Assembly: GCA_034722055.1 (NCBI GenBank)
Contig: JAYENL010000154.1
Span: forward strand, 24,444 to 80,841
Reading direction: 5' to 3'
DNA length: 56,398 bases
From: Armatimonadota bacterium
GTDB taxonomy: Bacteria; Armatimonadota; Zipacnadia; Zipacnadales; UBA5352
Shown: piece after piece, positions 10,217 through 37,282 of the stretch
Numbering within the stretch: position 1 is the stretch's first letter
Layout: the number at the start of each line of letters is the position of its first letter
Made by a program: the position numbers and the translations under genes
Notes under the pieces: generated by a model
Database searches by the model: none
What the model was told of the DNA's origin: nothing
What the model saw: only the letters and a program-made list of their open reading frames with translations

Positions 10217-10229
10217 GGAGCCCCGATAG

Positions 10230-10900
10230 CCTTGGGAGGCGGGCGCCCCCGCCCGTTTCTCCTGGCGACAACATTCGCGTAGGCCGGGCTTCCAGCCCGG
10301 ACAGACGGCGCACGCACAGGAGTGTGCGTGCCACGGAACGACACGGCATCCGCCAGCCGTTGACCGTTCGCCGTCGAGCGTCACGCACGCAAGGGGCCTT
10401 TCGGTGGGACGGACACTCCTGTCCGTCCGCCGTCCTGCGCAGGCCCGAAAGCCACCCGAAGAAGCGCACGCGCCCGCCCGCTTCTCTCGCACATCCTCCG
10501 CGTAGGCCGGGCTTCCAGCCCGCCAGCGACAGAAGAAGCACCCCAGCGGAGGGGCCGCCTGAGGGCGATTGCGCCGCAATCGCGCAAAGTCGGCCCGGCG
10601 GGTGATTGCCAGGCCTGGGCCGGCTTCGTCGGGCCTGACGGCCCTCCTCAGGACGGCCCCTCCGACGGCCTCTCGTCGTGCCATCCAAGCCGATGACCCA
10701 CCCCGACGCGCGCGACGGGCGGAGCCGGTGCAAGGCTCACCTCTCCGCTCGCTTCTCCTCGCACATCCTCCGCGTAGGCCGGGCTTCCAGCCCGGCAGCG
10801 ACAGACGAGGCATGGATAGAGACTAGATGTCTCCGGTACGCGTGCCACGCAATGACGCCTTGGGGCGCCTGCGCAAAGAAGGTAACCGCGCGCCGCAGCC
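10230..10900. repeat. cluster of at least 4 copies (both orientations) of a ~90-130 nt structured intergenic repeat; core CGCGTAGGCCGGGCTTCCAGCCCG + variable hairpin + GTGCCACGNAAYGRCG
   Basis: Forward cores start at ~10276, ~10500 and ~10773. A partial inverted copy lies at ~10375-10470. Each contains hairpin 1 (CCGGGC TTCCA GCCCGG). Hairpin 2 varies compensatorily between copies (GCACGCACA-GGAG-TGTGCGTGC versus GGACGGACA-CTCC-TGTCCGTCC versus GAGAC-TAGAT-GTCTC). The same family occurs at 33328 and 33533. Confidence 0.7.
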
Positions 10901-10962
10901 GAATACCTCACCAGCGCAGACACGGACGGCGGGAGCCGATCCCGCAGGAGTTGAGACACACA

Positions 10963-12371: not shown

Positions 12372-12400
12372 GGAGGGGCCGGACCACCGTCCGGCCCGCC
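12372..12400. repeat. REP-like palindromic hairpin GGAGGGGCCGGACCACCGTCCGGCCCGCC (9-bp stem, 4-nt loop) in a convergent intergenic region
   Basis: The same 29-mer (C/T variable in the loop) recurs at ~33226, ~33431 and 44334. This copy is flanked by the shared context TTGCCGCGCCGT. Confidence 0.6.
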
Positions 12401-12411
12401 GTTTCTTGGCA

Positions 12412-14331
12412 TTACCCGATGTCGATGTGCAGCTTGCGGTAGAGCTCGCCGGGCAGCAGCGCGCCGAAGGCGCCCCACAGCAGGCCCGCCACGAACAGGT
12501 GCCCGAAGGCGATGCCCAGAAACAGCGGCACCAGCCGCCGGTAGGTCCCGGCCCCGCCCAGCTTCACCACCAGTGACTTCACCACCCACACGGCCAGGAA
12601 CGGCCCCCACAGCAGGTAGCCGTAGCTGGTGGCCAGTGCGTACCCCAGCGGGTGCACGGGCAGCCGCAGGAACTGATGCCGCAGCGCGGAGAGGGCGGTC
12701 ACCACCGCCGCCCCACCTGCCGCGAAGCCCGTCGCCAGCCGCTGCGGCGGCGCCGGGCTGTCGTACATCCCCGACAGCAGGTCGAACTCCTGCCGAGCCA
12801 GCGTCGTCCGGTATCCCCCGGCGATCGTCCCGCCCTCCAGCACGTTGGCACCGTACTGGTAGAACGCCTGCAGGTGCATGGCGTAGGCCAGCGGGAGGCC
12901 CACCACGAAGGCGATCACCAGCGCGGCCACGATCTCCCGGCGGCGGGCCCGCATCCTATCGCCCAGCTCCAGGCTCTCCACCTGGAAGGCCATCAGCCCC
13001 GGGAAGTAGCCGCGGCAGAGGAAGTTCATGATGGACATGATGGTCAGCGACTGAAAGCCGCCACGCGCCCATGGCGCCGAGCCGGTGGCCTCCAGAATGA
13101 GCTTCTTGGCCTCGCCAAAGGGAAACGCCCAGTTCGTGGGCACGCCGGTCTCCGCCCGCACGCGGGTGAAGGTGATGGCGACAGCCAGCATCACGCCGAA
13201 GAACAGCGCCGCCAGGCCAAGGTGCATGCCCGCCGCTCGCGCCCACACGAGCATCCCCGCCAGCCCGGCCGCCCCAAGGACGTATGCCCAGCCACGACGC
13301 GCGTCGCCCGCCTCCGCGCGCCCCATCAGCCCCTGCAGCGCCTCCCCCAGCGAGCGCCGCGCCGACCACACCAGCAAAACGGCCATCGCCACGTAGGCGC
13401 CGACGCTCTGCCGCATGGTGAACGGGAAGCCCGGCGGCTCGTAGCCCACCGCCGTTCCGCCCACCGACAGCAGTTGCACCAGCAGAAAGAAGGCCCACGT
13501 CGATCCCAGGATCTCCAGCGGCACAAGGTAGCCGAAGCCCAGGAACTCCGGGCGGTGGTAGAAGCGAACGGCACCCATTGCGCTCCAGGGGCGCTCGGTG
13601 AAGAGGCTCCCGACCGGGTAGGTCAGACCCAGCGCCGGGAGTGCGGGGTTGAGCGCCTGCGCGATGTTGGTGCCGTCGAAGAGCGCCGCCAGGCCGAAGC
13701 CGATCCACATCAGCGGGTCCCGAAGCATCGGCAGGCGCGAGACGGCGCCCTCCCGGCCTACAAGCTCCACCGCGAATGTGGCCACCGGGTAGGTCAGCCG
13801 GTCGTGCTCCGTCCACGGCCGGCGCAGCAGCACCGCCACCGCCAGCAGCAGCGCGAAGAAACAGCCCAGCAGCAGCGCCCAGGAGGCCAGCGGCTGCAGC
13901 CAGGCGTCCCAGGGCACGCGCTCGTTCGCGGCCCCCTCGAAGTAGGCCTGGATCGCGGCGTCATCGCTCGGCGCCACCCAGCCAGGCACCAGCTTGGCAA
14001 GCTCCGCGTAGTTGTTGGGCGGCTCCGCGAAGTAGGGCAGGGCCGTCAGCGACGGCAGCAGCGGCCGGACGATCCCGAGGCTCGTCAGCGGGATGCCCAC
14101 CAAGACGATGATGTAGGCCACCGCGATCTCCGATGCCGCCAGCACGCGCCGACGCCGCAGCCACGCCAGCAGCCGGTCCAGGGCAATCAGCGCCAGCAGC
14201 GCCGCCAGGGCTGGCCCGGAGGGCACGCTGTTGTCGATGTTCGCCCCGAAGGTGATCAGCGAGGCGTAGCGAATCCACGCCACGCCGACCACCAGCAGCG
14301 CGACCCCCAGTGTCGTGGCGCGCAGACTCAT
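12412..14331 (-). CDS. large polytopic integral membrane protein of unknown family (paralog of 35300..37282)
   Basis: ~640 aa from MSLRATTLGVALLVVG, with many hydrophobic helices. Segments align with the second paralog: YFEGAANERVPWDAWLQPLASWAL vs FYEGLRSGAAMPWRPWLQALAAWLP; RRPWTEHDRLTYPVATFAVELV vs RRQWVDNEKLSFPLTVLPVELA; RDPLMWIGFGLAA vs ADPIMWIGFAIPT. Confidence 0.7.
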   Translation of the reverse strand: MSLRATTLGVALLVVGVAWIRYASLITFGANIDNSVPSGPALAALLALIALDRLLAWLRRRRVLAASEIAVAYIIVLVGIPLTSLGIVRPLLPSLTALPYFAEPPNNYAELAKLVPGWVAPSDDAAIQAYFEGAANERVPWDAWLQPLASWALLLGCFFALLLAVAVLLRRPWTEHDRLTYPVATFAVELVGREGAVSRLPMLRDPLMWIGFGLAALFDGTNIAQALNPALPALGLTYPVGSLFTERPWSAMGAVRFYHRPEFLGFGYLVPLEILGSTWAFFLLVQLLSVGGTAVGYEPPGFPFTMRQSVGAYVAMAVLLVWSARRSLGEALQGLMGRAEAGDARRGWAYVLGAAGLAGMLVWARAAGMHLGLAALFFGVMLAVAITFTRVRAETGVPTNWAFPFGEAKKLILEATGSAPWARGGFQSLTIMSIMNFLCRGYFPGLMAFQVESLELGDRMRARRREIVAALVIAFVVGLPLAYAMHLQAFYQYGANVLEGGTIAGGYRTTLARQEFDLLSGMYDSPAPPQRLATGFAAGGAAVVTALSALRHQFLRLPVHPLGYALATSYGYLLWGPFLAVWVVKSLVVKLGGAGTYRRLVPLFLGIAFGHLFVAGLLWGAFGALLPGELYRKLHIDIG

Positions 14332-14500
14332 GGTGCGGGTGATCGTCTCCCTGCCGCCGACGCCCGCAGGCGCCGGAAGTTCGGAGGCATGAGGGCATTT
14401 CAGGCGCCTCCCACGTCCACCTCTCATTCGACAGGCCGGGCCGCGTTCCTCCGCCCACGCACCACCCGCAGCATCAGACTCGGCGGCACAGCGCGGGCGC

Positions 14501-27486: not shown

Positions 27487-28515
27487 ATGGCGTTGCTCGA
27501 ATGGTACAACTTGATCTTCGTGGCTCCCGTTGGTCTGGCCGGCGTCTACCTGGTCCTGAGCGCCACGAGCATTGGCGACCTGACCGGGGAGACGGATGTG
27601 GACACTGACGTGGATGCCGACCTCGACCACGACGTGGACCTGGGAATGGACCATGATGTGGACACGGACATGGACCATGACCTGGACCTGGACATGGATC
27701 ATGACGTCGATCTGGACATGGATCACGACGTTGATCTCGACATGGACCATGATGTCGATGTGGACATGGACCATGATGTTGATGTGGGGATGGACCACGA
27801 CCTCGACGTCGATCATGACATCGACATGGATCACGATGTGGATGTCGATCACGACGTTGAGCTCGGCCACGACGTAGACATGGACCATGACGTAGACATG
27901 GACCATGACGTGGACATGGACCACGATGTGGACGTCGGCCACGACGCCGATGTCGGTCACGACGCGGACCTCGGTCACGACGTGGAGGCCGAGCACGATC
28001 TGGAGGCCCACCACGAGGCGACCGTGCACGCCCATGAGCCGTCCCTCTTCCTCCGAGCCCTGTCGGTGCTTGGGTTCGGGAAGGTCCCGCTATCGATCCT
28101 GGGCACCTGTCTGATGGTGCTGTTCGGCGCCACGGGTCTGATCGCCAACGGGCTGTTCGAGCACGTGCTGCCCTGGGAGTGGGCGCCCACGGTCTACGTG
28201 TGGCCGTCACTGGCGCTTGCCGTCTTCGCGTCCCTGACGCTCACCGGCTCCATGGCCCGGGGGCTGCATCGGATTATGCCCACCCGCGAGACCTACGCGG
28301 TGGGCCCCGAGGACCTGGTGGGCCGGGTCGGCGTCCCCATCTACGGCATCAGCGCCGGGCGGCGGGGCGTGGTCCACGTCAAAGATGAGGGTGGCACTCT
28401 GCACCAGGTGATGGGCCGGTCGCTTGAGGGGGACCTCGCCAAGGGCGCAGAGGTCATCCTGGTACGCTACCATCCGAAGGGGGATTACTATGACCTCACA
28501 GCCTCGCCCCTGTAG
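27487..28515 (+). CDS. NfeD-like (YuaF-type) membrane protein with an inserted Asp/His-rich (DHDVDM)n repeat region
   Basis: N-terminal TM helix, then ~23 tandem hexapeptides, then 2-3 TM helices, then a C-terminal OB-fold-like segment (GRVGVPIYGISAGRRGVVHV...GAEVILVRYHP) typical of short NfeD proteins that pair with flotillins. Confidence 0.7.
   Translation: MALLEWYNLIFVAPVGLAGVYLVLSATSIGDLTGETDVDTDVDADLDHDVDLGMDHDVDTDMDHDLDLDMDHDVDLDMDHDVDLDMDHDVDVDMDHDVDVGMDHDLDVDHDIDMDHDVDVDHDVELGHDVDMDHDVDMDHDVDMDHDVDVGHDADVGHDADLGHDVEAEHDLEAHHEATVHAHEPSLFLRALSVLGFGKVPLSILGTCLMVLFGATGLIANGLFEHVLPWEWAPTVYVWPSLALAVFASLTLTGSMARGLHRIMPTRETYAVGPEDLVGRVGVPIYGISAGRRGVVHVKDEGGTLHQVMGRSLEGDLAKGAEVILVRYHPKGDYYDLTASPL
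27592..28012 (+). repeat. in-frame tandem 18-bp repeat (consensus gaccatgacgtggacatg) encoding (M)DHDVD hexapeptides, ~23 units
   Basis: Directly visible in the sequence. Units vary by point substitutions (D/G, V/L/I, M/L/V), giving an Asp/His-rich acidic stretch. Confidence 0.9.
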
Positions 28516-31656: not shown

Positions 31657-33165
31657 ATGCCGCGCTTCCATTCGGACCCCAGCAATATCGACCGGACGCT
31701 CCACGTCCTCTGCCGCGACATCGGCAACCGCCTCGCCGCGACCGAGAACGAGCACCGTGCGGCCGAGTACGTCGCTGACCAGATGCGACAGATCGGCCTC
31801 TCGGACGTCACTCTGGAGCGCTTCCCGTTCCGCGTCTGGGGCTATGAGACGGCCGAGGTCCGCGTGCTGGGCGATGGCGCGCGGACCATCGAGGCCATCC
31901 CGGTCGCGAACTCCCCGGCCACGCCCGAGGCAGGCATCGAGGCCGAGGTCGTCTACGTGGACAACGCCACGCCCGCGGACCTGGCGATGCACGATGTCGA
32001 GGGCAAGGTCCTGCTCATCTGGGGACTCTACGGCGACAAGCGCGAGAAGCTGCAGATGCTCCAGCGCTCCGATGCCGTGGGCGTGCTGTGGGTCGATGAC
32101 CGCCTCCCCTTCGACTGGCCGGTGTCGGCGGGCACGCCCTACGACTGGCGCGACACCCTCCAGCTCCCGCAGCTCACGCTCCCCTACTTCGACGCCCTGG
32201 AGCTGGCGCAGCAGCCCGGCGCTCGCGTGCGGATGATCAGCCGCACCTGGTCGGAGCCGGCCGAGTCCGTCAACGTCCTCGGCGATCTGCCCGGCCCCGG
32301 CGAGGAGCTCGTCCACGTCGGCGCGCACATCGACAGCGTCATCGTGGGGGTCGGCGCGGAGGATGACGGCTCCGGCGTGGCCGCGATGCTGGAGGCCGCG
32401 CGCATGCTGGTGGAGCTGGGCGAGCGGCCTGAGCGCACCGTCCGCTTCTGCGCCTTCGGCGCCGAGGAGCAGCTCTCGGAGGGCGCGCGGCAGTATGTCG
32501 AGGCGCATCCGGAGGAGGTGGATCGCACGCGGCTGATGGTGCAGCTCGACTCCGTGGCGGCCATCACCGGCCGCAACCAGCTTCGCGTGGTGGGGCCGCC
32601 GGAGCTGACCGACATGGTCCGCGCGCTCATCGAGCCCGGCCACGAGCCGCTGTCGGAGGCGGCGGGCACGCCGGCGGAGGGCGAGGATCGCGGCTCCTAC
32701 ACCCGTGGCGGTGATGTGCACCGCCCCGAGGAGGCGGGGCCGGGCGCCAAGCACGGGCCATCGCCGGGCACGCCCGCGCGGGATCGGGCCTCCGTGGCGC
32801 GCGGGGCGGAGATGTCTCGACCGAGTCAGGCCGGGCCGTCGCCGGAGGTCCAGCCGCGGGGCGTGCCGGTGATCTCGGGGGAGGTGCTGGAGGAGGTCTC
32901 GCCCTACTCGGACATGTTCCCGTTCAACGCCCGCGGGGCGCCGTCGGTGTGGCTGCATCGGATGAACCAGGCGGGGACGCGCTACTTCCACCACTCGCAC
33001 CTGGACGACCTGCAGTCGATCTCATCCGAGGTCATCGCCATGCACGCGAATGCCACCGCGCACTTGACGCACACCGCGGCCTTCACCGACCCCACCTGGC
33101 AGCGGACCATCCCCCAGGGCCAGATGACCGAGATCGAGGAGATGGCCAAGCGCTTCTTCCCGTAG
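31657..33165 (+). CDS. M28-family Zn aminopeptidase with a ~75-aa low-complexity insertion
   Basis: GAGGAGG Shine-Dalgarno + ATG at 31657. M28 core (HVGAHIDSV, AEDDGSGVAAMLEAARML, AFGAEEQ, C-terminal HHSHLDDL). Insertion is GTPAEGEDRG...PSPEVQPRG. Confidence 0.8.
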   Translation: MPRFHSDPSNIDRTLHVLCRDIGNRLAATENEHRAAEYVADQMRQIGLSDVTLERFPFRVWGYETAEVRVLGDGARTIEAIPVANSPATPEAGIEAEVVYVDNATPADLAMHDVEGKVLLIWGLYGDKREKLQMLQRSDAVGVLWVDDRLPFDWPVSAGTPYDWRDTLQLPQLTLPYFDALELAQQPGARVRMISRTWSEPAESVNVLGDLPGPGEELVHVGAHIDSVIVGVGAEDDGSGVAAMLEAARMLVELGERPERTVRFCAFGAEEQLSEGARQYVEAHPEEVDRTRLMVQLDSVAAITGRNQLRVVGPPELTDMVRALIEPGHEPLSEAAGTPAEGEDRGSYTRGGDVHRPEEAGPGAKHGPSPGTPARDRASVARGAEMSRPSQAGPSPEVQPRGVPVISGEVLEEVSPYSDMFPFNARGAPSVWLHRMNQAGTRYFHHSHLDDLQSISSEVIAMHANATAHLTHTAAFTDPTWQRTIPQGQMTEIEEMAKRFFP

Positions 33166-33213
33166 CGCCCTGACTCGTCTCTCGTACGGAGGGGCGGCCT
33201 GCCCAGGCCGCCC

Positions 33214-33600
33214 GCCGTGCCGTCTGGAGGGGCCGGACCACTGTCCGGCCCGCCGTGCCGTTTGCCGCGCCGTTTGGAGGGGCGCGACTACGTTCGCGCC
33301 CGGCCGTCGCCGCCCGCTCTATCTCACGCGCAGGTCGGGCTTCCAGCCCGACAACGCAAACGACGCACGGACCGAGACCAAAGGTCTCCAGTGTCCGTGC
33401 CACGGAACGGCGGCCTTTGCCGTGCCGTCTGGAGGGGCCGGACCACTGTCCGGCCCGCCGTGCCGTTTGCCGCGCCGTTTGGCGGGGCGCGCCTCCGCTC
33501 GCGCCCGGCCGTTGCCGCCCGGTCTATCTCACGCGTAGGTCGGGCTTCCAGCCCGACAACCCAAACGACCGGCGGGTCTGAAGACGCCGCCGCTCCTATA
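33214..33600. repeat. two tandem copies (period 205 bp) of a composite repeat: REP hairpin + GC hairpin + CGCGYAGGTCGGGCTTCCAGCCCG structured core
   Basis: 33214-33418 and 33419-~33600 are near-identical (GCCGTGCCGTCTGGAGGGGCCGGACCACTGTCCGGCCCGCCGTGCCGTTTGCCGCGCCGTTTGG...). They sit directly upstream of the candidate restriction endonuclease gene. The long ORF 33217..34377 through them is an artefact. Confidence 0.85.
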
Positions 33601-33696
33601 TGTCTTCAGCGTACGCATGCTGCCCCAAAGCCAGTCAGCTTGAAGGGCTGCCCAGCGATCGGTGCGAATGGGGTAGTAAAGCCCCGCGGAGTGTGG

Positions 33697-34377
33697 ATGG
33701 CTCCACGCGAGAGGGATGACATTGTGAACGATGACAGAGATTACAAGACGGCGGCTCTGAAGAACATGGTTGCAAATCGGTTCCAACTGAACTTCAAGCG
33801 CAACGTCGGACCCACCTCACAGTCCATCAGGGAGTGCCAGCCCCGCTCGAGAGATGGGTGGGCAGATTACTACTACGCGAGCGTCCGGCCCCCCAAGCAC
33901 ATCGACGGACTCGGGAGGATCATGTACCAGAAGATCCACGAGGAGATCATTCCTGCACTCCAGAGCATCACGGTCGAGGAGTGCATCGCATACATGCACG
34001 AGCTGGTCATCGACAAGACGTACGATGGATACTGCGCCGAGATTGCTGCAGTGAAGCAGTTCGTCGAGGAGGAGTTGGAAGGCTACGAGGTCCTGCCCGC
34101 GCCTGACGAGGTGGACAGGACACTGGCGGTGGACTACTACATACCCGTCGGCGAGAACTGGGTTGGGTTGCAGATCAAACCTGTCACAGTTGAGCAGATT
34201 CCCAATCTACATGAATGGCAGGAAAGGTGGCGTGAGGGCCATGAGGAGTTCCGACGCCGGTACGGCGGAGGGGTCTTCACGCTGGTGAGTGTCCGCGAGG
34301 GGCGCGACCAGAAGGCACTCCACAATCCCGAGGTCATTCAGGACATCAAGGCTGAGATACAGCGGCTTGAGCAGTGA
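33697..34377 (+). CDS. candidate Type II restriction endonuclease (PD-(D/E)xK-like), partner of the adjacent methyltransferase
   Basis: 226-aa ORF with GC content visibly lower than its neighbours. Convergent with, and overlapping by ~32 bp, the DNA methyltransferase gene. Possible catalytic pattern ...VDYYIPVGENWVGLQIK. No recognised family; the call is by context. Confidence 0.45.
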   Translation: MAPRERDDIVNDDRDYKTAALKNMVANRFQLNFKRNVGPTSQSIRECQPRSRDGWADYYYASVRPPKHIDGLGRIMYQKIHEEIIPALQSITVEECIAYMHELVIDKTYDGYCAEIAAVKQFVEEELEGYEVLPAPDEVDRTLAVDYYIPVGENWVGLQIKPVTVEQIPNLHEWQERWREGHEEFRRRYGGGVFTLVSVREGRDQKALHNPEVIQDIKAEIQRLEQ

Positions 34378-35275
34378 CGTCGCCATCCCGCGGCGCCTCG
34401 CGGGTCTCAAACGTGAGGTCTACCTCGCCGGCATCGAACAGGCTTGCGTCCCCGACGCCGAACTTGTCGCGGATGACCTCCCGGAAGGCCTCGTTGATCT
34501 CGTAGCCCACCGATGAGCGGCCCTCTTCGTGAGCCGCGAGGGCCGTCGTTCCACTCCCCATGAACGGGTCCAGGACCGTGTCTGCCCAGAAGGTGTACAT
34601 TTTGATCAGCCGCCGCGGGATCTCCAGCGGGAACATCGCGACGTGGTCCTCCTGTCGAGCCGGCGGAATGTCATCCCAAACGCCCCTGAACCACCTGGAC
34701 CGCTGCTCTTTGGTGAGCCTGCTCTTCTCCTTTGCCTCGTCGGAGGCAGGGCCGGGCCAATCGCCGCGCTTGCGCAGCAGCAGGATATACTCGTGCTCGT
34801 AGGTGACGTGGCCGTCGCGGGGGTAGTACATGGACCCCATGAGCGTGCAGCCGCCCGTGGTGTTGGTGGTGGACACCTTGCGCCAAATGATGTTGCCCAT
34901 GAAGTCGAAGCCGACCTGGCGGCCGATCACGCTGAGGTCGGCGGGGATGGGCTGGACCCGATACCGCCCGTGCTCGGAGGCGCGCAGGTACTGGTCTCCG
35001 ATGTTAATGGCCATTCGGCATCCGGGGTGCAGGACGCGGTGGCACTCCGCGATGACGCGCTCCATCGACGCCAGATACTCATCGTAGGCTTGGCGGTGAC
35101 CGATCTGGCCGGGATGCTCGTAGTCCTTGATGCACCAGTAGGGAGGGGACGTCACCACCAGATGAACGGACGCGTCTGCCAACTCGCTCATATACTGACT
35201 GTCGCCGAAGATGATGCGATGCTTCTGCGCAGAGTCTGACACAGCGGCCACCTCGTTAGCAGCGGGTCCTGTCAC
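34346..35275 (-). CDS. beta-class DNA amino-methyltransferase (N4-cytosine or N6-adenine); motif IV SPPY precedes motif I FxGSG
   Basis: LVVTSPPYW (motif IV) near the N-terminus, DPFMGSGTT (motif I) near the C-terminus. This is the permuted beta-class order seen in M.PvuII/M.RsrI-type enzymes. Confidence 0.85.
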   Translation of the reverse strand: MTGPAANEVAAVSDSAQKHRIIFGDSQYMSELADASVHLVVTSPPYWCIKDYEHPGQIGHRQAYDEYLASMERVIAECHRVLHPGCRMAINIGDQYLRASEHGRYRVQPIPADLSVIGRQVGFDFMGNIIWRKVSTTNTTGGCTLMGSMYYPRDGHVTYEHEYILLLRKRGDWPGPASDEAKEKSRLTKEQRSRWFRGVWDDIPPARQEDHVAMFPLEIPRRLIKMYTFWADTVLDPFMGSGTTALAAHEEGRSSVGYEINEAFREVIRDKFGVGDASLFDAGEVDLTFETREAPRDGDVTAQAAVSQP

Positions 35276-35299: not shown

Positions 35300-37282
35300 T
35301 CACGGCCACGGAAAGAACGGCGCTGGCGTTCTCCAGATGCCGGAGATGGTGGCCCAGAGCACGGCCTGGGAGAACTCGCCCAGGATGAGGCCGAAGAAGA
35401 ACGGCCGCAGCCGCAAGTACACGCTCATGCCCCCGTAGCGGATCACCCCGCCCTTGATCAGCCACGCCACCAGCATCGGGAACCAGAACACGATCATGCT
35501 CCACGAGCCCGAGAGCGCGAAGCCCAGCGGCGAGAGCGGCCACCACACATACTGCATGCGCAGGACGCTGAGCACCAGCGTCACCACCACCCCCGAGCCG
35601 AAGAAGGCCAGCAGCCGGGGGTCATACTCATCCCCCGCCTGCAGGATCGGCGCGAAGTAGCGCACCCCCAGCAGGGGATTGCCGCGGTAGACGTAGCCGT
35701 ACATGCCGATGGCCCCGTGCTCGTAGGGCAGCCGCAGGTGCAGCCAGCCCCCGAAGCCCAGCGCCACCGCCAGCGCCACGCCCAGCGCCCCGAACAGGTG
35801 CCGACGATCCAGGCCGGTCGCGTCGGACATCTTCAGCGAGTCCAGCAGCGTGGAGAGCAGGTTGCCGCGCAGATCGCGGGTGAAGACCGCATCGGCGAAG
35901 GCCAGGGAGGTGAGGGTGCTCGGCCGCAGGGACTTCATGGGCGTGCCCAGGCGCACCAGGTCCACGGGGCGGAAGCTGGTCTCGGTCATCAGCAGCCCCG
36001 CCTCGGCCACGCTGCGGGCCATCACCACGCAGACCACGCCCAGGAAGACGATGGTCTCCAGCGCGGCCATCCACCAGCTCATCCCCAGCATCGCGAACCA
36101 CCCCGTGGCGACGATCACCGCCGCGGCCAGGCCGATGAGCTCAACGCGCGGCGGCAGCGCCGGCCGGGCCTCGGCCTCATGGTCCGCGGCGTGCTCGCCG
36201 CCGCCCATCGCGGCCCGCCACAGGGCGGACAGATGCGGGCGCGCGGAGCGGATGAGGTAGCCGGTGAGCACCAGGTATGCGCCGGCCACCTGGTAGCCGT
36301 TCCACAGTGAGGTGGGGTAGAGGGGCATGGGCTCGAAGGTTGCTCCGAAGGCCGAGAAGGCGATGTTCTGGATGCGGATGATGACGTAGAAGGCCCACAG
36401 GGAGAAGAGGACCTGGGCGGGGAGGAAGTACCCAAAGCCCACGGCGGCCATGGAGGTGTAGGCGGTGGTGTAGCCCAGGTCCCGCCACGGCCGGCCCATG
36501 GCGTTGAAGACGAGCTGGTTGAGGCGGTATTGGACGGGGATCTGGGGCACGGACGGCCGCAGGCCGTGGATGCCGTTGACGGTGAAGACGATGGTGGGGA
36601 TGGCGAAGCCGATCCACATGATGGGGTCGGCGAAGACCGAGCGCGCCCACCGGGAGTGCTCGGCCAGCTCCACCGGCAGGACGGTGAGGGGGAAGGAGAG
36701 CTTCTCGTTATCCACCCACTGCCGGCGGATGATCGACGCCAGGCAGAAGTAGGCCACGAAGAGGGCCAGCACGGGGGGCAGCCAGGCCGCCAGGGCCTGC
36801 AGCCACGGCCGCCAGGGCATGGCTGCGCCGGAGCGGAGGCCCTCGTAGAACGCGGAGGCGATCCACTGCCCGGACTCGCCCTCCACGTCGAAGGGCACCG
36901 CCCACTGGGGGATGTGCTCGAAGAAGAGCTGGGCCCAGTCGTTGGCGGGGTTGGCGTAGTAGTTGACGCAGATGAGCGCCGGGATCCACCGCTCCAGCAG
37001 CCCGCGGCTCATGGTCAGCGCGCCCACCAGGGTCATGGTGTAGACCACGATGACCTCGTGCGCGCGCAGGGCGAGGCGAGGCACGAGGGCCCCGATGGCG
37101 AGATTCGCCATGACCACCGCCAGCAGGATGCCGATGGCGGTGGGGGCGAACTGGCAGATGGCGATCTGGATGCTGCCCACCGTCATCTCGGCCCAGGAGA
37201 CCATCCAGCAGGCGGCCGCCGCGCAGGCGGCGCCGATGACGACGGCCCGGACGGACAGCGGGCGGCGCGGGATCGCGATCAC
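35300..37282 (-). CDS. large polytopic integral membrane protein of unknown family (paralog of 12412..14331)
   Basis: 660 aa with many TM helices. Shares several colinear motifs with the first paralog (see 12412..14331). Ends 25 bp upstream of the methyltransferase start on the same strand. Confidence 0.7.
   Translation of the reverse strand: MIAIPRRPLSVRAVVIGAACAAAACWMVSWAEMTVGSIQIAICQFAPTAIGILLAVVMANLAIGALVPRLALRAHEVIVVYTMTLVGALTMSRGLLERWIPALICVNYYANPANDWAQLFFEHIPQWAVPFDVEGESGQWIASAFYEGLRSGAAMPWRPWLQALAAWLPPVLALFVAYFCLASIIRRQWVDNEKLSFPLTVLPVELAEHSRWARSVFADPIMWIGFAIPTIVFTVNGIHGLRPSVPQIPVQYRLNQLVFNAMGRPWRDLGYTTAYTSMAAVGFGYFLPAQVLFSLWAFYVIIRIQNIAFSAFGATFEPMPLYPTSLWNGYQVAGAYLVLTGYLIRSARPHLSALWRAAMGGGEHAADHEAEARPALPPRVELIGLAAAVIVATGWFAMLGMSWWMAALETIVFLGVVCVVMARSVAEAGLLMTETSFRPVDLVRLGTPMKSLRPSTLTSLAFADAVFTRDLRGNLLSTLLDSLKMSDATGLDRRHLFGALGVALAVALGFGGWLHLRLPYEHGAIGMYGYVYRGNPLLGVRYFAPILQAGDEYDPRLLAFFGSGVVVTLVLSVLRMQYVWWPLSPLGFALSGSWSMIVFWFPMLVAWLIKGGVIRYGGMSVYLRLRPFFFGLILGEFSQAVLWATISGIWRTPAPFFPWP

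What the first reader, a model, noticed from the sequence alone, without database searches (positions are those of the whole stretch)
33214..33600. 205-bp tandem direct repeat (2 copies) of stacked hairpin modules immediately upstream of a lower-GC R-M pair
Each unit concatenates the REP hairpin (GGAGGGGCCGGACCACTGTCCGGCCC), a second GC hairpin, and the CGCGYAGGTCGGGCTTCCAGCCCG...GTGCCACGGAACG structured core. The two units are near-identical, so the duplication is recent. The array lies between the M28 peptidase and the candidate restriction endonuclease. It could mark the integration boundary of the R-M island, or act as a transcriptional insulator or regulator of the nuclease.
Basis: seen in the sequence. 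Interest (0 to 1): 0.58.

Follow-up and report, generated by a model that had tools for sequence, protein, structure and literature searches.

The report
Locally duplicated cluster of REP hairpins
The repeat is real but ordinary: it is a pile-up of small palindromic "REP" elements that litter the DNA between genes in this Armatimonadota genome, part of it was duplicated recently, and it is neither the border of the neighbouring restriction-modification genes nor a dedicated regulator of them.

Summary
A 151-nt segment (33214-33364) recurs at 33419-33569 with 8 mismatches, 205 nt apart. The 54 nt between the copies do not recur after copy 2. The M28-to-REase spacer holds nine GC-rich hairpins from several multi-copy families. 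One family, GCGTAGGTCGGGCTTCCAGCCCGAC, is a GTAG-tagged REP. It has 5 copies in the window and more than 100 loci in Armatimonadota MAGs. It occurs singly, in head-to-tail arrays (periods 30-354 nt) and as inverted pairs about 46 nt apart. A REP-associated tyrosine transposase gene fragment lies in one such MAG. Its relatives are flanked by REPs of the same build.

The neighbours are an MjaI-family endonuclease and an N4/N6 methyltransferase. The closest relative (about 89% nt identity) has one copy of the modules, a MazE-PIN cassette between them and the R-M pair, and a deleted endonuclease. A more distant relative (M28 69% aa) has MazE-PIN, the endonuclease and the methyltransferase at the same site but no hairpins. 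More distant genomes lack the R-M pair. So the R-M pair is old accessory cargo, and the REP array arrived later and expanded only in this lineage. It is not an island boundary, and nothing ties it to the nuclease. I read it as a new REP family of a known kind, of low interest.

The parts
31657..33165 (+). M28/M20-family metallopeptidase gene; its stop codon lies 22 nt before the first hairpin.
   Evidence: Pfam Peptidase_M28 8e-32. P0001 is 100% identical and named as an Armatimonadota MAG protein.
33188..33213 (+). Hairpin hp0, GGAGGGGCGGCCTGCCCAGGCCGCCC. It is conserved in the closest relative and belongs to the GGAGGGGC-stem-loop-stem-GCCCGCCGT module type.
   Evidence: Fold energy -22 kcal/mol. 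The same hairpin follows the M28 stop in L103. hp0-like copies occur elsewhere.
33214..33364 (+). Copy 1 of the 151-nt direct repeat (REP-a, REP-b and the GTAG-type REP).
   Evidence: the repeat finder family D1; the 8 differences from copy 2 are listed.
33226..33251 (+). REP-a hairpin, GGAGGGGCCGGACCACTGTCCGGCCC.
   Evidence: Four window copies (12372, 33226, 33431, 44334) against 0 in shuffles. Seven copies in loci of relative JBNGDZ01, in both orientations. Fold energy -21.3 kcal/mol.
33276..33301 (+). REP-b hairpin, GGAGGGGCGCGACTACGTTCGCGCCC. It has the same flanks as REP-a and a different stem.
   Evidence: TRF 50-nt period over 33214-33312. Fold energy -17 kcal/mol.
33328..33352 (+). 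Class A element: a GTAG-type REP, here with the tag mutated to GCAG. Sequence GCGCAGGTCGGGCTTCCAGCCCGAC; 8-bp stem and 3-nt loop.
   Evidence: Fold energy -14.6 kcal/mol.
33365..33413 (+). Module B: a long hairpin (GCACGGAC...GTCCGTGC with an inner GAGACC/GGTCTC stem) plus the tail CACGGAACGG. It is not repeated after copy 2.
   Evidence: Fold energy -22.8 kcal/mol, z = -5.2. The module recurs at 10311-10340 and in L006, L041, L026 and L103, and in reverse orientation in L106.
33419..33569 (+). Copy 2 of the 151-nt direct repeat (REP-a' 33431-33456, REP-b' 33481-33506, class A' 33533-33557 with an intact GTAG tag).
33570..33596 (+). Module D hairpin, CGGCGGGTCTGAAGACGCCGCCGCTCC. It takes the place of module B after copy 2.
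   Evidence: Related copies in L038, L093 and L027. Its fold is weakly distinguished from shuffles (-16.6 kcal/mol, z = -1.25).
33727..34377 (+). MjaI-family type II restriction endonuclease gene, intact. GTG start preceded by GAGGGA.
   Evidence: Pfam RE_MjaI 5.7e-31. P0040 is 100% identical and named as an MjaI family restriction endonuclease. About 80 nt upstream of the start (about 33650-33726) align with L103.
34346..35275 (-). N4/N6 DNA methyltransferase gene. It is convergent with the endonuclease gene and overlaps it by 32 nt. Its start lies 24 nt from the stop of the DUF6785 gene.
   Evidence: Pfam N6_N4_Mtase 9.8e-45. It is 91% aa identical in L103 and 76% in L189, at the same position.
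35300..37282 (-). DUF6785/DUF6784 membrane protein gene, the conserved right-hand flank of the variable interval.
   Evidence: Pfam 2.7e-130. Orthologues flank the interval in L103, L189, L106 and L108.

Best explanation
The feature is a cluster of repetitive extragenic palindromes in the spacer after the M28 peptidase gene. The spacer holds several families of short GC-rich hairpin modules that are multi-copy in this Armatimonadota lineage.

One family (class A, GCGTAGGTCGGGCTTCCAGCCCGAC) has the build of the GTAG-tagged REPs that are associated with REP-associated tyrosine transposases (RAYTs). It has an unpaired GTAG head, an 8-bp GC stem and a 3-nt loop. The other modules (REP-a/REP-b/hp0, B and D) are companion hairpin families without that tag.

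The '205-bp tandem repeat' is a lineage-specific segmental duplication of three adjacent modules (REP-a, REP-b, class A). I infer that it arose by slippage or unequal recombination among the many short direct repeats that the modules share. It went together with loss of the MazE-PIN cassette that relatives carry exactly where copy 2 departs from the relative's sequence.

Shown here: the modules, their copy numbers, their presence at unrelated loci, tandem arrays of the same kind elsewhere, and the order of events at this locus. Inferred: mobilisation or maintenance by a RAYT, the exact duplication mechanism, and any effect on RNA. If the array is transcribed with M28, the nine hairpins would most plausibly protect the 3' end of that mRNA and dampen read-through, which is a generic REP effect and not specific control of the nuclease.
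For: Module families:
- Class A has 5 copies in the window against 0 expected.
- Among adjacent class A copies there are 37 direct pairs (29 within 400 nt, at spacings of 30-354 nt including 205, 212 and 350), 12 inverted pairs with GTAG outside (mostly 45-46 nt) and 2 with GTAG inside.
- Composite tandem arrays like this one occur in L041 (212-nt period: class A + B, then REP-a, then class A + B) and L044 (350-nt period).
- REP-a, B, hp0-like and D modules are each multi-copy, and REP-a, B and hp0-like occur in both orientations in the closest relative's genome.
- All nine hairpins fold stably.

RAYT link:
- A Y1-transposase-like gene end lies in Zipacnadia MAG locus L034.
- Its metagenomic relatives score as REP-associated tyrosine transposase: NCBIfam NF047646 at 134.6 and 87.9 bits against a cutoff of 80.
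- GTAG-headed hairpins were detected in 38 of 80 of these loci, and in many they flank the gene in inverted orientation, for example GTAGGTCAGGGCCCCAGCCCTGAC in L173 and GTAGGTCAGGACTCCCGTCCTGAC in L109.

Literature:
- Di Nocera et al. 2013 (PMC3733652) define the GTAG-tagged REP superfamily.
- They state that large REP clusters are made of units reiterated in tandem together with flanking DNA, and that REPs lie mostly between unidirectional or convergent ORFs, close to the 3' end of the upstream ORF.

Locus history:
- L103 has hp0, one class A + B and one REP-a, then MazE-PIN, a 42-aa endonuclease remnant and the methyltransferase.
- L189 has MazE-PIN and the R-M pair at the same site with no hairpins.
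- L106 has a hairpin-rich spacer and no R-M pair.
Against: - No RAYT gene flanked by class A itself was found, and the source genome outside this window could not be searched.
- Head-to-tail arrangements dominate in this family, whereas Di Nocera et al. report head-to-tail dimers as rare in most REP families.
- All nine REP copies in the window (class A and REP-a) lie on one strand.
- In other genomes class A shows a marked preference for the sense strand 20-31 nt upstream of start codons. That could point to a function at the RNA level rather than purely selfish spread.
- The path of the duplication cannot be reconstructed as a single simple event.
- The window comes from a metagenome-assembled contig, so the exact copy number of the repeat rests on one assembly.
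Confidence: 0.8

Rival explanations
1. The class A hairpin, with or without module B, is a functional cis-acting RNA element: a 5'-UTR or intercistronic stabiliser, processing site or translational element. The array would then tune expression of the downstream endonuclease.
For: - Among class A copies with a gene start within 70 nt, 18 are in sense orientation and 2 in antisense, with a peak 20-31 nt before start codons of real genes such as rpsM, rplL and a tatA-like gene.
- All window copies are on the sense strand of both flanking genes.
- Stems differ between copies and module types while keeping pairing.
Against: - No Rfam family matches.
- Class A occurs mostly without B, and B occurs without A and in reverse orientation, so the two are independent modules and not one RNA.
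- The window copies lie 164-170 nt from the next start codon, not at the 20-31 nt position.
- In L103 a toxin-antitoxin cassette separates the modules from the endonuclease remnant, and L189 has the R-M pair without any module.
- Compensatory stem changes are equally expected for hairpins recognised as DNA.
Confidence: 0.1
2. The array is the left boundary (attachment-site scar or recombination site) of a recently integrated R-M island.
For: - GC drops immediately after the array.
- The R-M pair is absent from the same interval in L106/L107 and L108.
- A 75%-identical methyltransferase homologue lies in a different gene context in a Zipacnadia MAG.
Against: - L189 has the R-M pair at the same site without the array.
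- The R-M proteins have diverged in step with the flanking proteins: 70-76% against 69% for M28.
- L103 has MazE-PIN between the array and the R-M pair.
- No copy of the modules lies at the right-hand edge, where only 24 nt separate the methyltransferase start from the DUF6785 stop.
- The same modules sit next to housekeeping genes.
Confidence: 0.03
3. The two-copy arrangement is an assembly artefact of a metagenome-assembled contig.
For: Two independent short-read assemblies break at 33243, inside copy 1. This shows that assemblers struggle at this point.
Against: - The copies differ at 8 positions and have different 3' neighbours.
- The longest identical stretch is 64 nt, shorter than usual read lengths.
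- Assemblers tend to collapse repeats rather than create them (general knowledge).
- Similar tandem composites occur in other MAGs.
Confidence: 0.05

Closest known systems
GTAG-tagged REPs and their RAYT transposases (REPtrons): Di Nocera et al. 2013, PMC3733652; Nunvar et al. 2010, PMC2817692
   Same: Class A is a 25-nt unit with an unpaired GTAG head directly before an 8-bp GC-rich stem and a 3-nt loop. It is extragenic, highly repeated and dispersed. It is found singly, as inverted dimers 45-46 nt apart, and in clusters reiterated with flanking DNA. RAYT genes flanked by REPs of the same build exist in related metagenomic sequences.
   Different: No cognate RAYT flanked by class A was seen. 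Head-to-tail arrays dominate. The identical 23-mer is shared by several genera, and by a few MAGs labelled as other phyla, with GC from 49 to 74%. No paper in the searchable library contains the sequence, and none mentions both Armatimonadetes and repetitive extragenic elements.
E. coli BIMEs (bacterial interspersed mosaic elements); comparison from my own knowledge and the abstract of PMC2817692
   Same: Both are mosaics of different REP types and linker motifs, piled up in transcribed intergenic spacers and expandable in tandem.
   Different: BIMEs alternate REP orientation at regular spacing. Here all modules in the array point the same way, and the linkers are unrelated.
REPINs (REP doublets forming hairpins); from my own knowledge
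   Same: The class A family includes inverted doublets about 46 nt apart in other genomes (L024, L068, L086).
   Different: The array in this window contains no inverted doublet.
MjaI-family type II restriction-modification systems (context genes)
   Same: The pair combines a RE_MjaI-domain endonuclease with an N6_N4 methyltransferase, convergent and overlapping. CTAG, which I recall as the MjaI site, is almost absent from the window (2 observed against 65 expected).
   Different: Specificity was not tested. CTAG depletion is also seen in clade members that lack the pair at this locus.

Membership tests
GTAG-tagged REP (RAYT-type REP) | A short (20-40 bp) unit that forms a stem-loop, with a stem of 6-13 bp and a short loop. 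| tested here: met
   GTCGGGCT-TCC-AGCCCGAC has an 8-bp stem and a 3-nt loop and folds at -14.6 kcal/mol. Criteria are from PMC3733652.
GTAG-tagged REP (RAYT-type REP) | An unpaired GTAG (or degenerate GYAG/GTRG) motif at one end. | tested here: met
   GTAG immediately precedes the stem at 10279, 10502, 10774 and 33535. The copy at 33331 has GCAG. In the collection scan, which allowed GTAG or GCAG at this position, nearly all copies shown carry GTAG.
GTAG-tagged REP (RAYT-type REP) | High copy number, dispersed around the genome, mostly extragenic. | tested here: met
   There are 5 copies in 56 kb, all in spacers. The total for the source genome itself could not be counted.
GTAG-tagged REP (RAYT-type REP) | A RAYT (Y1/HUH transposase) gene in the genome, flanked by the same REP. 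| tested here: inconclusive
   No RAYT lies in the window or next to class A in 100 loci. A RAYT-like gene end is present in a Zipacnadia MAG (L034). Its relatives match NF047646 and carry flanking GTAG REPs of similar sequence, but none carries class A itself.
GTAG-tagged REP (RAYT-type REP) | Inverted (head-head or tail-tail) dimers as the preferred association. | tested here: not met
   Twelve inverted pairs with GTAG outside exist, but 37 direct pairs dominate. The window array is entirely head-to-tail. This preference is usual rather than defining: PMC3733652 describes families made mostly of singletons or clusters.
CGTC-tagged REP (for the REP-a/REP-b/hp0 modules) | A terminal CGTC tag, a stem of 8-9 bp with A/T pairs in the first and second positions, and a CCA-like tail. 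| tested here: not met
   CGTC precedes REP-a only at 33220 and 33425. Other copies have CGTA, CGTT or GCGT. The stems are all G/C at their base and the tail is GCCGT.
E. coli-type BIME | REPs in alternating orientation at regular spacing. | tested here: not met
   All modules of the array are on the + strand.
Integron attC site or cassette boundary | An imperfect palindrome bounded by RYYYAAC ... GTTRRRY core sites, an integrase nearby, and confinement to a cassette array. | tested here: not met
   By reading the sequence, no GTTRRRY/RYYYAAC pair brackets the modules; no pattern search was run, and the window was not scanned for an integrase. The same modules lie before rpsM, rplL and many unrelated genes.
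Any curated RNA family (Rfam 15) | A covariance-model match at or near the family's gathering score. | tested here: not met
   There were no matches at gathering score in the whole window. In 33100-33760 only chance-level hits appeared, far below threshold.
Intrinsic (Rho-independent) terminator | A GC-rich hairpin followed by a run of T. | tested here: not met
   No terminator-like site was found in 33000-33900. The hairpin tails are GCCGTGCCGTTTGCC or similar, without a T run.
Type II R-M system, MjaI family (neighbouring genes) | An endonuclease with the RE_MjaI domain next to a DNA methyltransferase. | tested here: met
   RE_MjaI 5.7e-31 and N6_N4_Mtase 9.8e-45. NCBI names the identical protein P0040 as an MjaI family endonuclease.

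The most novel reading that the evidence does not exclude
Class A (GCGTAGGTCGGGCTTCCAGCCCGAC) may be more than a selfish REP. It may be a selected RNA-level element of Armatimonadota. It is kept identical across genera and placed in sense orientation 20-31 nt before start codons of core genes (rpsM, rplL, a tatA-like gene). It multiplies mainly head-to-tail, through hairpin-driven template switching. The arrays, including this one, would then act as mRNA processing or stability punctuation between genes.
Probability: 0.12. Interest if true: 0.5.

Novelty: new member of a known kind. Interest (0 to 1): 0.2.

Why it matters
It matters mainly for interpretation. Stacked hairpin arrays in these high-GC Armatimonadota contigs should be read as REP clusters. 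They are not island borders, riboswitches or CRISPR-like arrays, and they are places where short-read assemblies break.

REP families and RAYT association do not seem to have been described for Armatimonadota in the literature I could search. The family defined here, and its unusual head-to-tail habit, add a phylum to the GTAG-REP picture.

The locus also gives a clean small example of cargo turnover in one conserved interval. A toxin-antitoxin pair was lost here, the endonuclease decayed in two relatives while the methyltransferase was kept, and REPs invaded later.

Tried and rejected
Hypotheses tested and set aside:
- Rfam, at gathering score on the whole window and at permissive E-value on the spacer, gave nothing meaningful.
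- The promoter and terminator consensus scan of 33000-33900 found nothing.
- TRF did not recover the 205-nt period.
- An integron attC reading, a CRISPR reading and a coding reading were considered and rejected. The coding reading was ORF 33217-34377 as an N-terminal extension of the endonuclease. Homologues and the NCBI gene call start at about 33724-33727, and L103 aligns only from about 33650.
- The class A + B unit as a single RNA was rejected, because the two modules occur independently.

Searches that failed or were limited:
- Exact look-ups of my endonuclease and methyltransferase translations, and of the NCBI version P0040, found nothing on record.
- A regex screen for HUH/Y transposases found no RAYT in the first 108 loci (L001-L108) or the window.
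- The one gene flanked by inverted class A copies (L005) has the sequence features of an HD-domain OB-fold nuclease (my reading of the translation, no domain search), not a transposase.
- A search of the 5.8-billion-protein set with the 57-aa RAYT fragment returned no candidates, so that search was wasted.
- tblastn of the relative's MazE and PIN against the window found no remnant.
- Text searches for the class A sequence in papers gave no relevant hit.

Full report
**What is in the sequence**

The stretch 33214-33364 recurs at 33419-33569. The segment is 151 nt long and the copies start 205 nt apart. They differ at eight positions. The first 64 nt are identical, and four differences cluster in the second hairpin.

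The 54 nt after copy 1 are a long hairpin plus CACGGAACGG. They have no counterpart after copy 2, where a different hairpin (CGGCGGGTCTGAAGACGCCGCCG) follows. The feature is therefore about 1.7 periods, not two full units, and TRF did not list period 205.

Counting a further hairpin just after the M28 stop codon (33188-33213), the spacer holds nine consecutive GC-rich stem-loops. They fold at -14.6 to -22.8 kcal/mol, and the whole spacer has z = -4.3. No terminator-like or sigma-70-like site was found there.

The flanking genes are an M28/M20 peptidase, an MjaI-family endonuclease and an N4/N6 methyltransferase. Beyond them lies a DUF6785/DUF6784 membrane protein gene. GC drops to 57-64% over the R-M pair.

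**The modules are genome-wide repeat families**

It has five copies in the window, all on the + strand. Three more lie in the 740-bp spacer before a DegT-type aminotransferase gene (10281, 10504, 10776). Shuffled sequence gave none.

It also lies at 12372 and 44334.

An exact-match scan of one genome per species returned the maximum of 100 loci for the core motif. Nearly all were from Armatimonadota MAGs (Ca. Zipacnadia, Armatimonadia, E05-054 bin22, CSMAG_1176), with many loci per genome. Single hits came from MAGs labelled Caldithrix, Bacteroidetes and Kapaibacterium. Locus GC ranged from 49 to 74%. The window's own genome is not in that set. Its best matches there are 77-81% identical over coding DNA.

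Across the loci the motif occurs in several arrangements:
- single copies;
- head-to-tail arrays: 37 adjacent direct pairs, 29 of them within 400 nt, at spacings of 30-354 nt;
- inverted doublets with GTAG outside: 12 pairs, mostly 45-46 nt apart.

Composite tandem arrays very like the one in question occur in the closest relative's genome. L041 has a 212-nt period made of class A + B, then REP-a, then class A + B. L044 has a 350-nt period. REP-a, B, hp0-like and D modules are each multi-copy there, and REP-a, B and hp0-like occur in both orientations. Most class A copies lack B, and B occurs alone and reversed in L106. The modules are therefore independent building blocks.

**What kind of element**

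Class A has the defining build of the GTAG-tagged REP superfamily. It has an unpaired GTAG next to a short GC-rich palindrome, is extragenic, and is highly repeated. [quoted passage not shown] 2013, PMC3733652).

I could not find a RAYT gene flanked by class A. One Zipacnadia MAG carries the 3' end of a Y1-transposase-like gene at a contig edge (L034). Eighty metagenomic relatives of that fragment were retrieved. Two that I checked score as 'REP-associated tyrosine transposase' (NF047646, 134.6 and 87.9 bits against a cutoff of 80). GTAG-headed hairpins were detected in 38 of the 80 loci, in many of them flanking the gene in inverted orientation, and some are close to class A in sequence (GTAGGTCAGGGCCCCAGCCCTGAC, GTAGGTCAGGACTCCCGTCCTGAC).

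Membership in the GTAG-REP kind is therefore well supported on structure and distribution. The transposase link is inferred.

The REP-a/REP-b/hp0 modules share the flanks GGAGGGGC...GCCCGCCGT but have different, mutually compensating stems. They do not fit the published CGTC family features. Rfam has nothing for any of these modules. No paper in the library contains the sequence, and none mentions both Armatimonadetes and repetitive extragenic elements.

**History of the locus**

The M28 protein is 100% identical to an Armatimonadota MAG protein. Orthologous loci were compared with the window, where the order is M28, the hairpin array (with the duplicated segment), the intact endonuclease gene, the methyltransferase gene and DUF6785.

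| Locus | Similarity to the window | Order after M28 |
|---|---|---|
| L103 (JBNGDZ01) | M28 88% aa; flanks 88-91% nt | hp0, one class A + B, one REP-a, MazE-PIN cassette with its own promoter-like sequence, 42-aa endonuclease remnant (first 8 codons fused to the last ~34), methyltransferase (91% aa), DUF6785 |
| L189 | M28 69%, endonuclease 70%, methyltransferase 76%, DUF6785 C-terminus 91% aa | MazE, decayed PIN, truncated endonuclease, methyltransferase, DUF6785; the toxin-antitoxin promoter-like sequence directly follows the M28 stop, with no hairpin module |
| L108 | M28 66% aa | MazE-PIN, unknown 712-aa gene, DUF6785; no R-M pair |
| L106/L107 | M28 66% aa | 800-bp hairpin-rich spacer, pilin-like gene, DUF6785; no R-M pair |
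| L104 | M28 68% aa | synteny ends after M28 |

MazE and PIN of L103 and L108 are 71% and 57% identical, similar to the divergence of the flanks.

The most economical reading has four steps:
1. The toxin-antitoxin pair is oldest at this site.
2. The R-M pair was added in the ancestor of the window, L103 and L189.
3. REP modules entered the M28-proximal spacer in the ancestor of the window and L103.
4. In the window's lineage the toxin-antitoxin cassette was lost and three modules were duplicated.

Copy 2 departs from the L103 sequence exactly where the cassette begins in L103, just after REP-a.

The R-M pair is thus accessory but old. It has diverged in step with its neighbours, and the hairpin array is younger than it. 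A 75%-identical methyltransferase homologue in a different context in a Zipacnadia MAG shows that such genes do move.

**How it most likely works**

Shown:
- the array is built from independent, multi-copy hairpin families;
- the same families form tandem composites elsewhere;
- the duplication is lineage-specific;
- the array has no conserved relation to the nuclease.

Inferred:
- Class A spreads or is maintained through a RAYT acting on the hairpin as single-stranded DNA. This is established for E. coli REPs (PMC3479197, PMC8266576, which I cite from their abstracts).
- Local expansion arises by slippage or unequal recombination among the short direct repeats the modules share (GCCGTGCCGTC; ACGGAnnGGCGGCCT, family D3). 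Many loci show partial 30-45-nt reiterations of the 5' arm plus flank of class A (L023, L057, L019, L038, L075), which suggests hairpin-provoked template switching.
- If transcribed with M28, the hairpins would act as generic 3'-end protectors or read-through dampers. The endonuclease keeps about 80 nt of conserved upstream sequence downstream of the array and probably has its own promoter there.

**Rivals**

- A dedicated RNA regulator is possible but weakly supported. The best argument for an RNA-level role is the strong sense-strand preference of class A just upstream of ribosome-binding sites in other genomes. The window copies are not in that position.
- The island-boundary idea is contradicted by L189, L103 and L106.
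- An assembly artefact is unlikely, given eight differences and different 3' neighbours. However, two short-read assemblies do break at 33243, so long-read confirmation would be worthwhile.

**Verdict**

The R-M identification is right. The proposed boundary or regulator roles are not supported. The feature is a locally duplicated REP cluster, from what appears to be an undescribed GTAG-REP family of Armatimonadota. That makes it a new member of a known kind, of low general interest.

Noticed in passing
whole window; CTAG only at 10823 and 40499: CTAG, which I recall as the MjaI recognition site, occurs twice in 56,398 nt against 65 expected from a Markov model (O/E 0.03). The depletion is equally extreme in L103, L189, L104, L106, L108, JBNGDZ01 and JALGUI01 loci. 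It is milder (O/E 0.4-0.6) in other Armatimonadota MAGs. This fits long exposure of the clade to CTAG-specific restriction.
   Followed up: partly
L003 (before rpsM), L075 (before rplL), L067 (tatA-like), L021, L039, L077, L094 and others: The class A REP lies 20-31 nt before start codons, just upstream of the ribosome-binding site, in sense orientation. Within 70 nt of a start codon there are 18 sense and 2 antisense cases.
   Followed up: partly
L023, L057, L019, L038, L075 (positions): There are short tandem reiterations (30-45-nt period) of the 5' flank plus 5' arm of class A, ending in one complete hairpin. They look like slippage or template switching at the hairpin.
   Followed up: no
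window 10220-10960: This is a second REP cluster. Three class A copies are spaced 223 and 272 nt apart (a 55-nt stretch is 95% identical between two of them). Two of them are followed by a B-type hairpin (10776 in a diverged form), and other hairpins fill the rest of the 740-bp spacer before a DegT/DnrJ/EryC1 aminotransferase gene.
   Followed up: partly
L103 10459-10587; L189 6130-6567: The endonuclease is degraded in both relatives that carry the R-M pair at this site. L103 has an internal deletion leaving 42 aa, and L189 has a truncation or frameshift at 145 aa. The methyltransferase stays intact in both, so they look like orphan methylases in the making.
   Followed up: partly
L103 9783-10363; L108 9719-10302; L189 5404-5843: A MazE-PIN toxin-antitoxin cassette sits directly after the M28 gene in three relatives, preceded by a promoter-like sequence that I read by eye (TTGACA/TTGATA...TATGATAAT-like). 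It is absent from the window without a trace.
   Followed up: yes
window about 32640-32870 (inside the M28 gene): A low-complexity insert of about 75 aa (GC 76-77%) interrupts the peptidase domain. It is present in 501-515-aa homologues and absent from 427-431-aa ones. The DNA there contains hairpins, for example CGTGGCGGTG-ATGTG-CACCGCCCCG. It may be an old intragenic repeat insertion.
   Followed up: partly
window 27598-28016: There are nested coding-type tandem repeats (periods 6 to 90 nt; units such as GACCACGACGTGGAC), which suggest a His/Asp-rich repeat protein. The region aligns poorly (64-68%) with L103.
   Followed up: no
window 12412-14427 and 35300-37282, both on the - strand: Two paralogous DUF6785/DUF6784 membrane protein genes lie in the window. 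Each has a REP-type hairpin region near it, on the side of its stop codon.
   Followed up: no
L004 5360-5450; L028: A different GTAG REP family (GTAGGGGCGCA...TGCGCCCC), arranged as inverted doublets, coexists with class A in Zipacnadia MAGs.
   Followed up: no
L046 (Caldithrix MAG), L048 (Bacteroidetes MAG chromosome OY969726.1), L051 (Kapaibacterium MAG): The exact class A 23-mer also occurs in MAGs labelled as other phyla, at 49-53% GC. In L048 and L051 it lies at what look like homologous positions. This could reflect horizontal spread, convergence or binning contamination.
   Followed up: no
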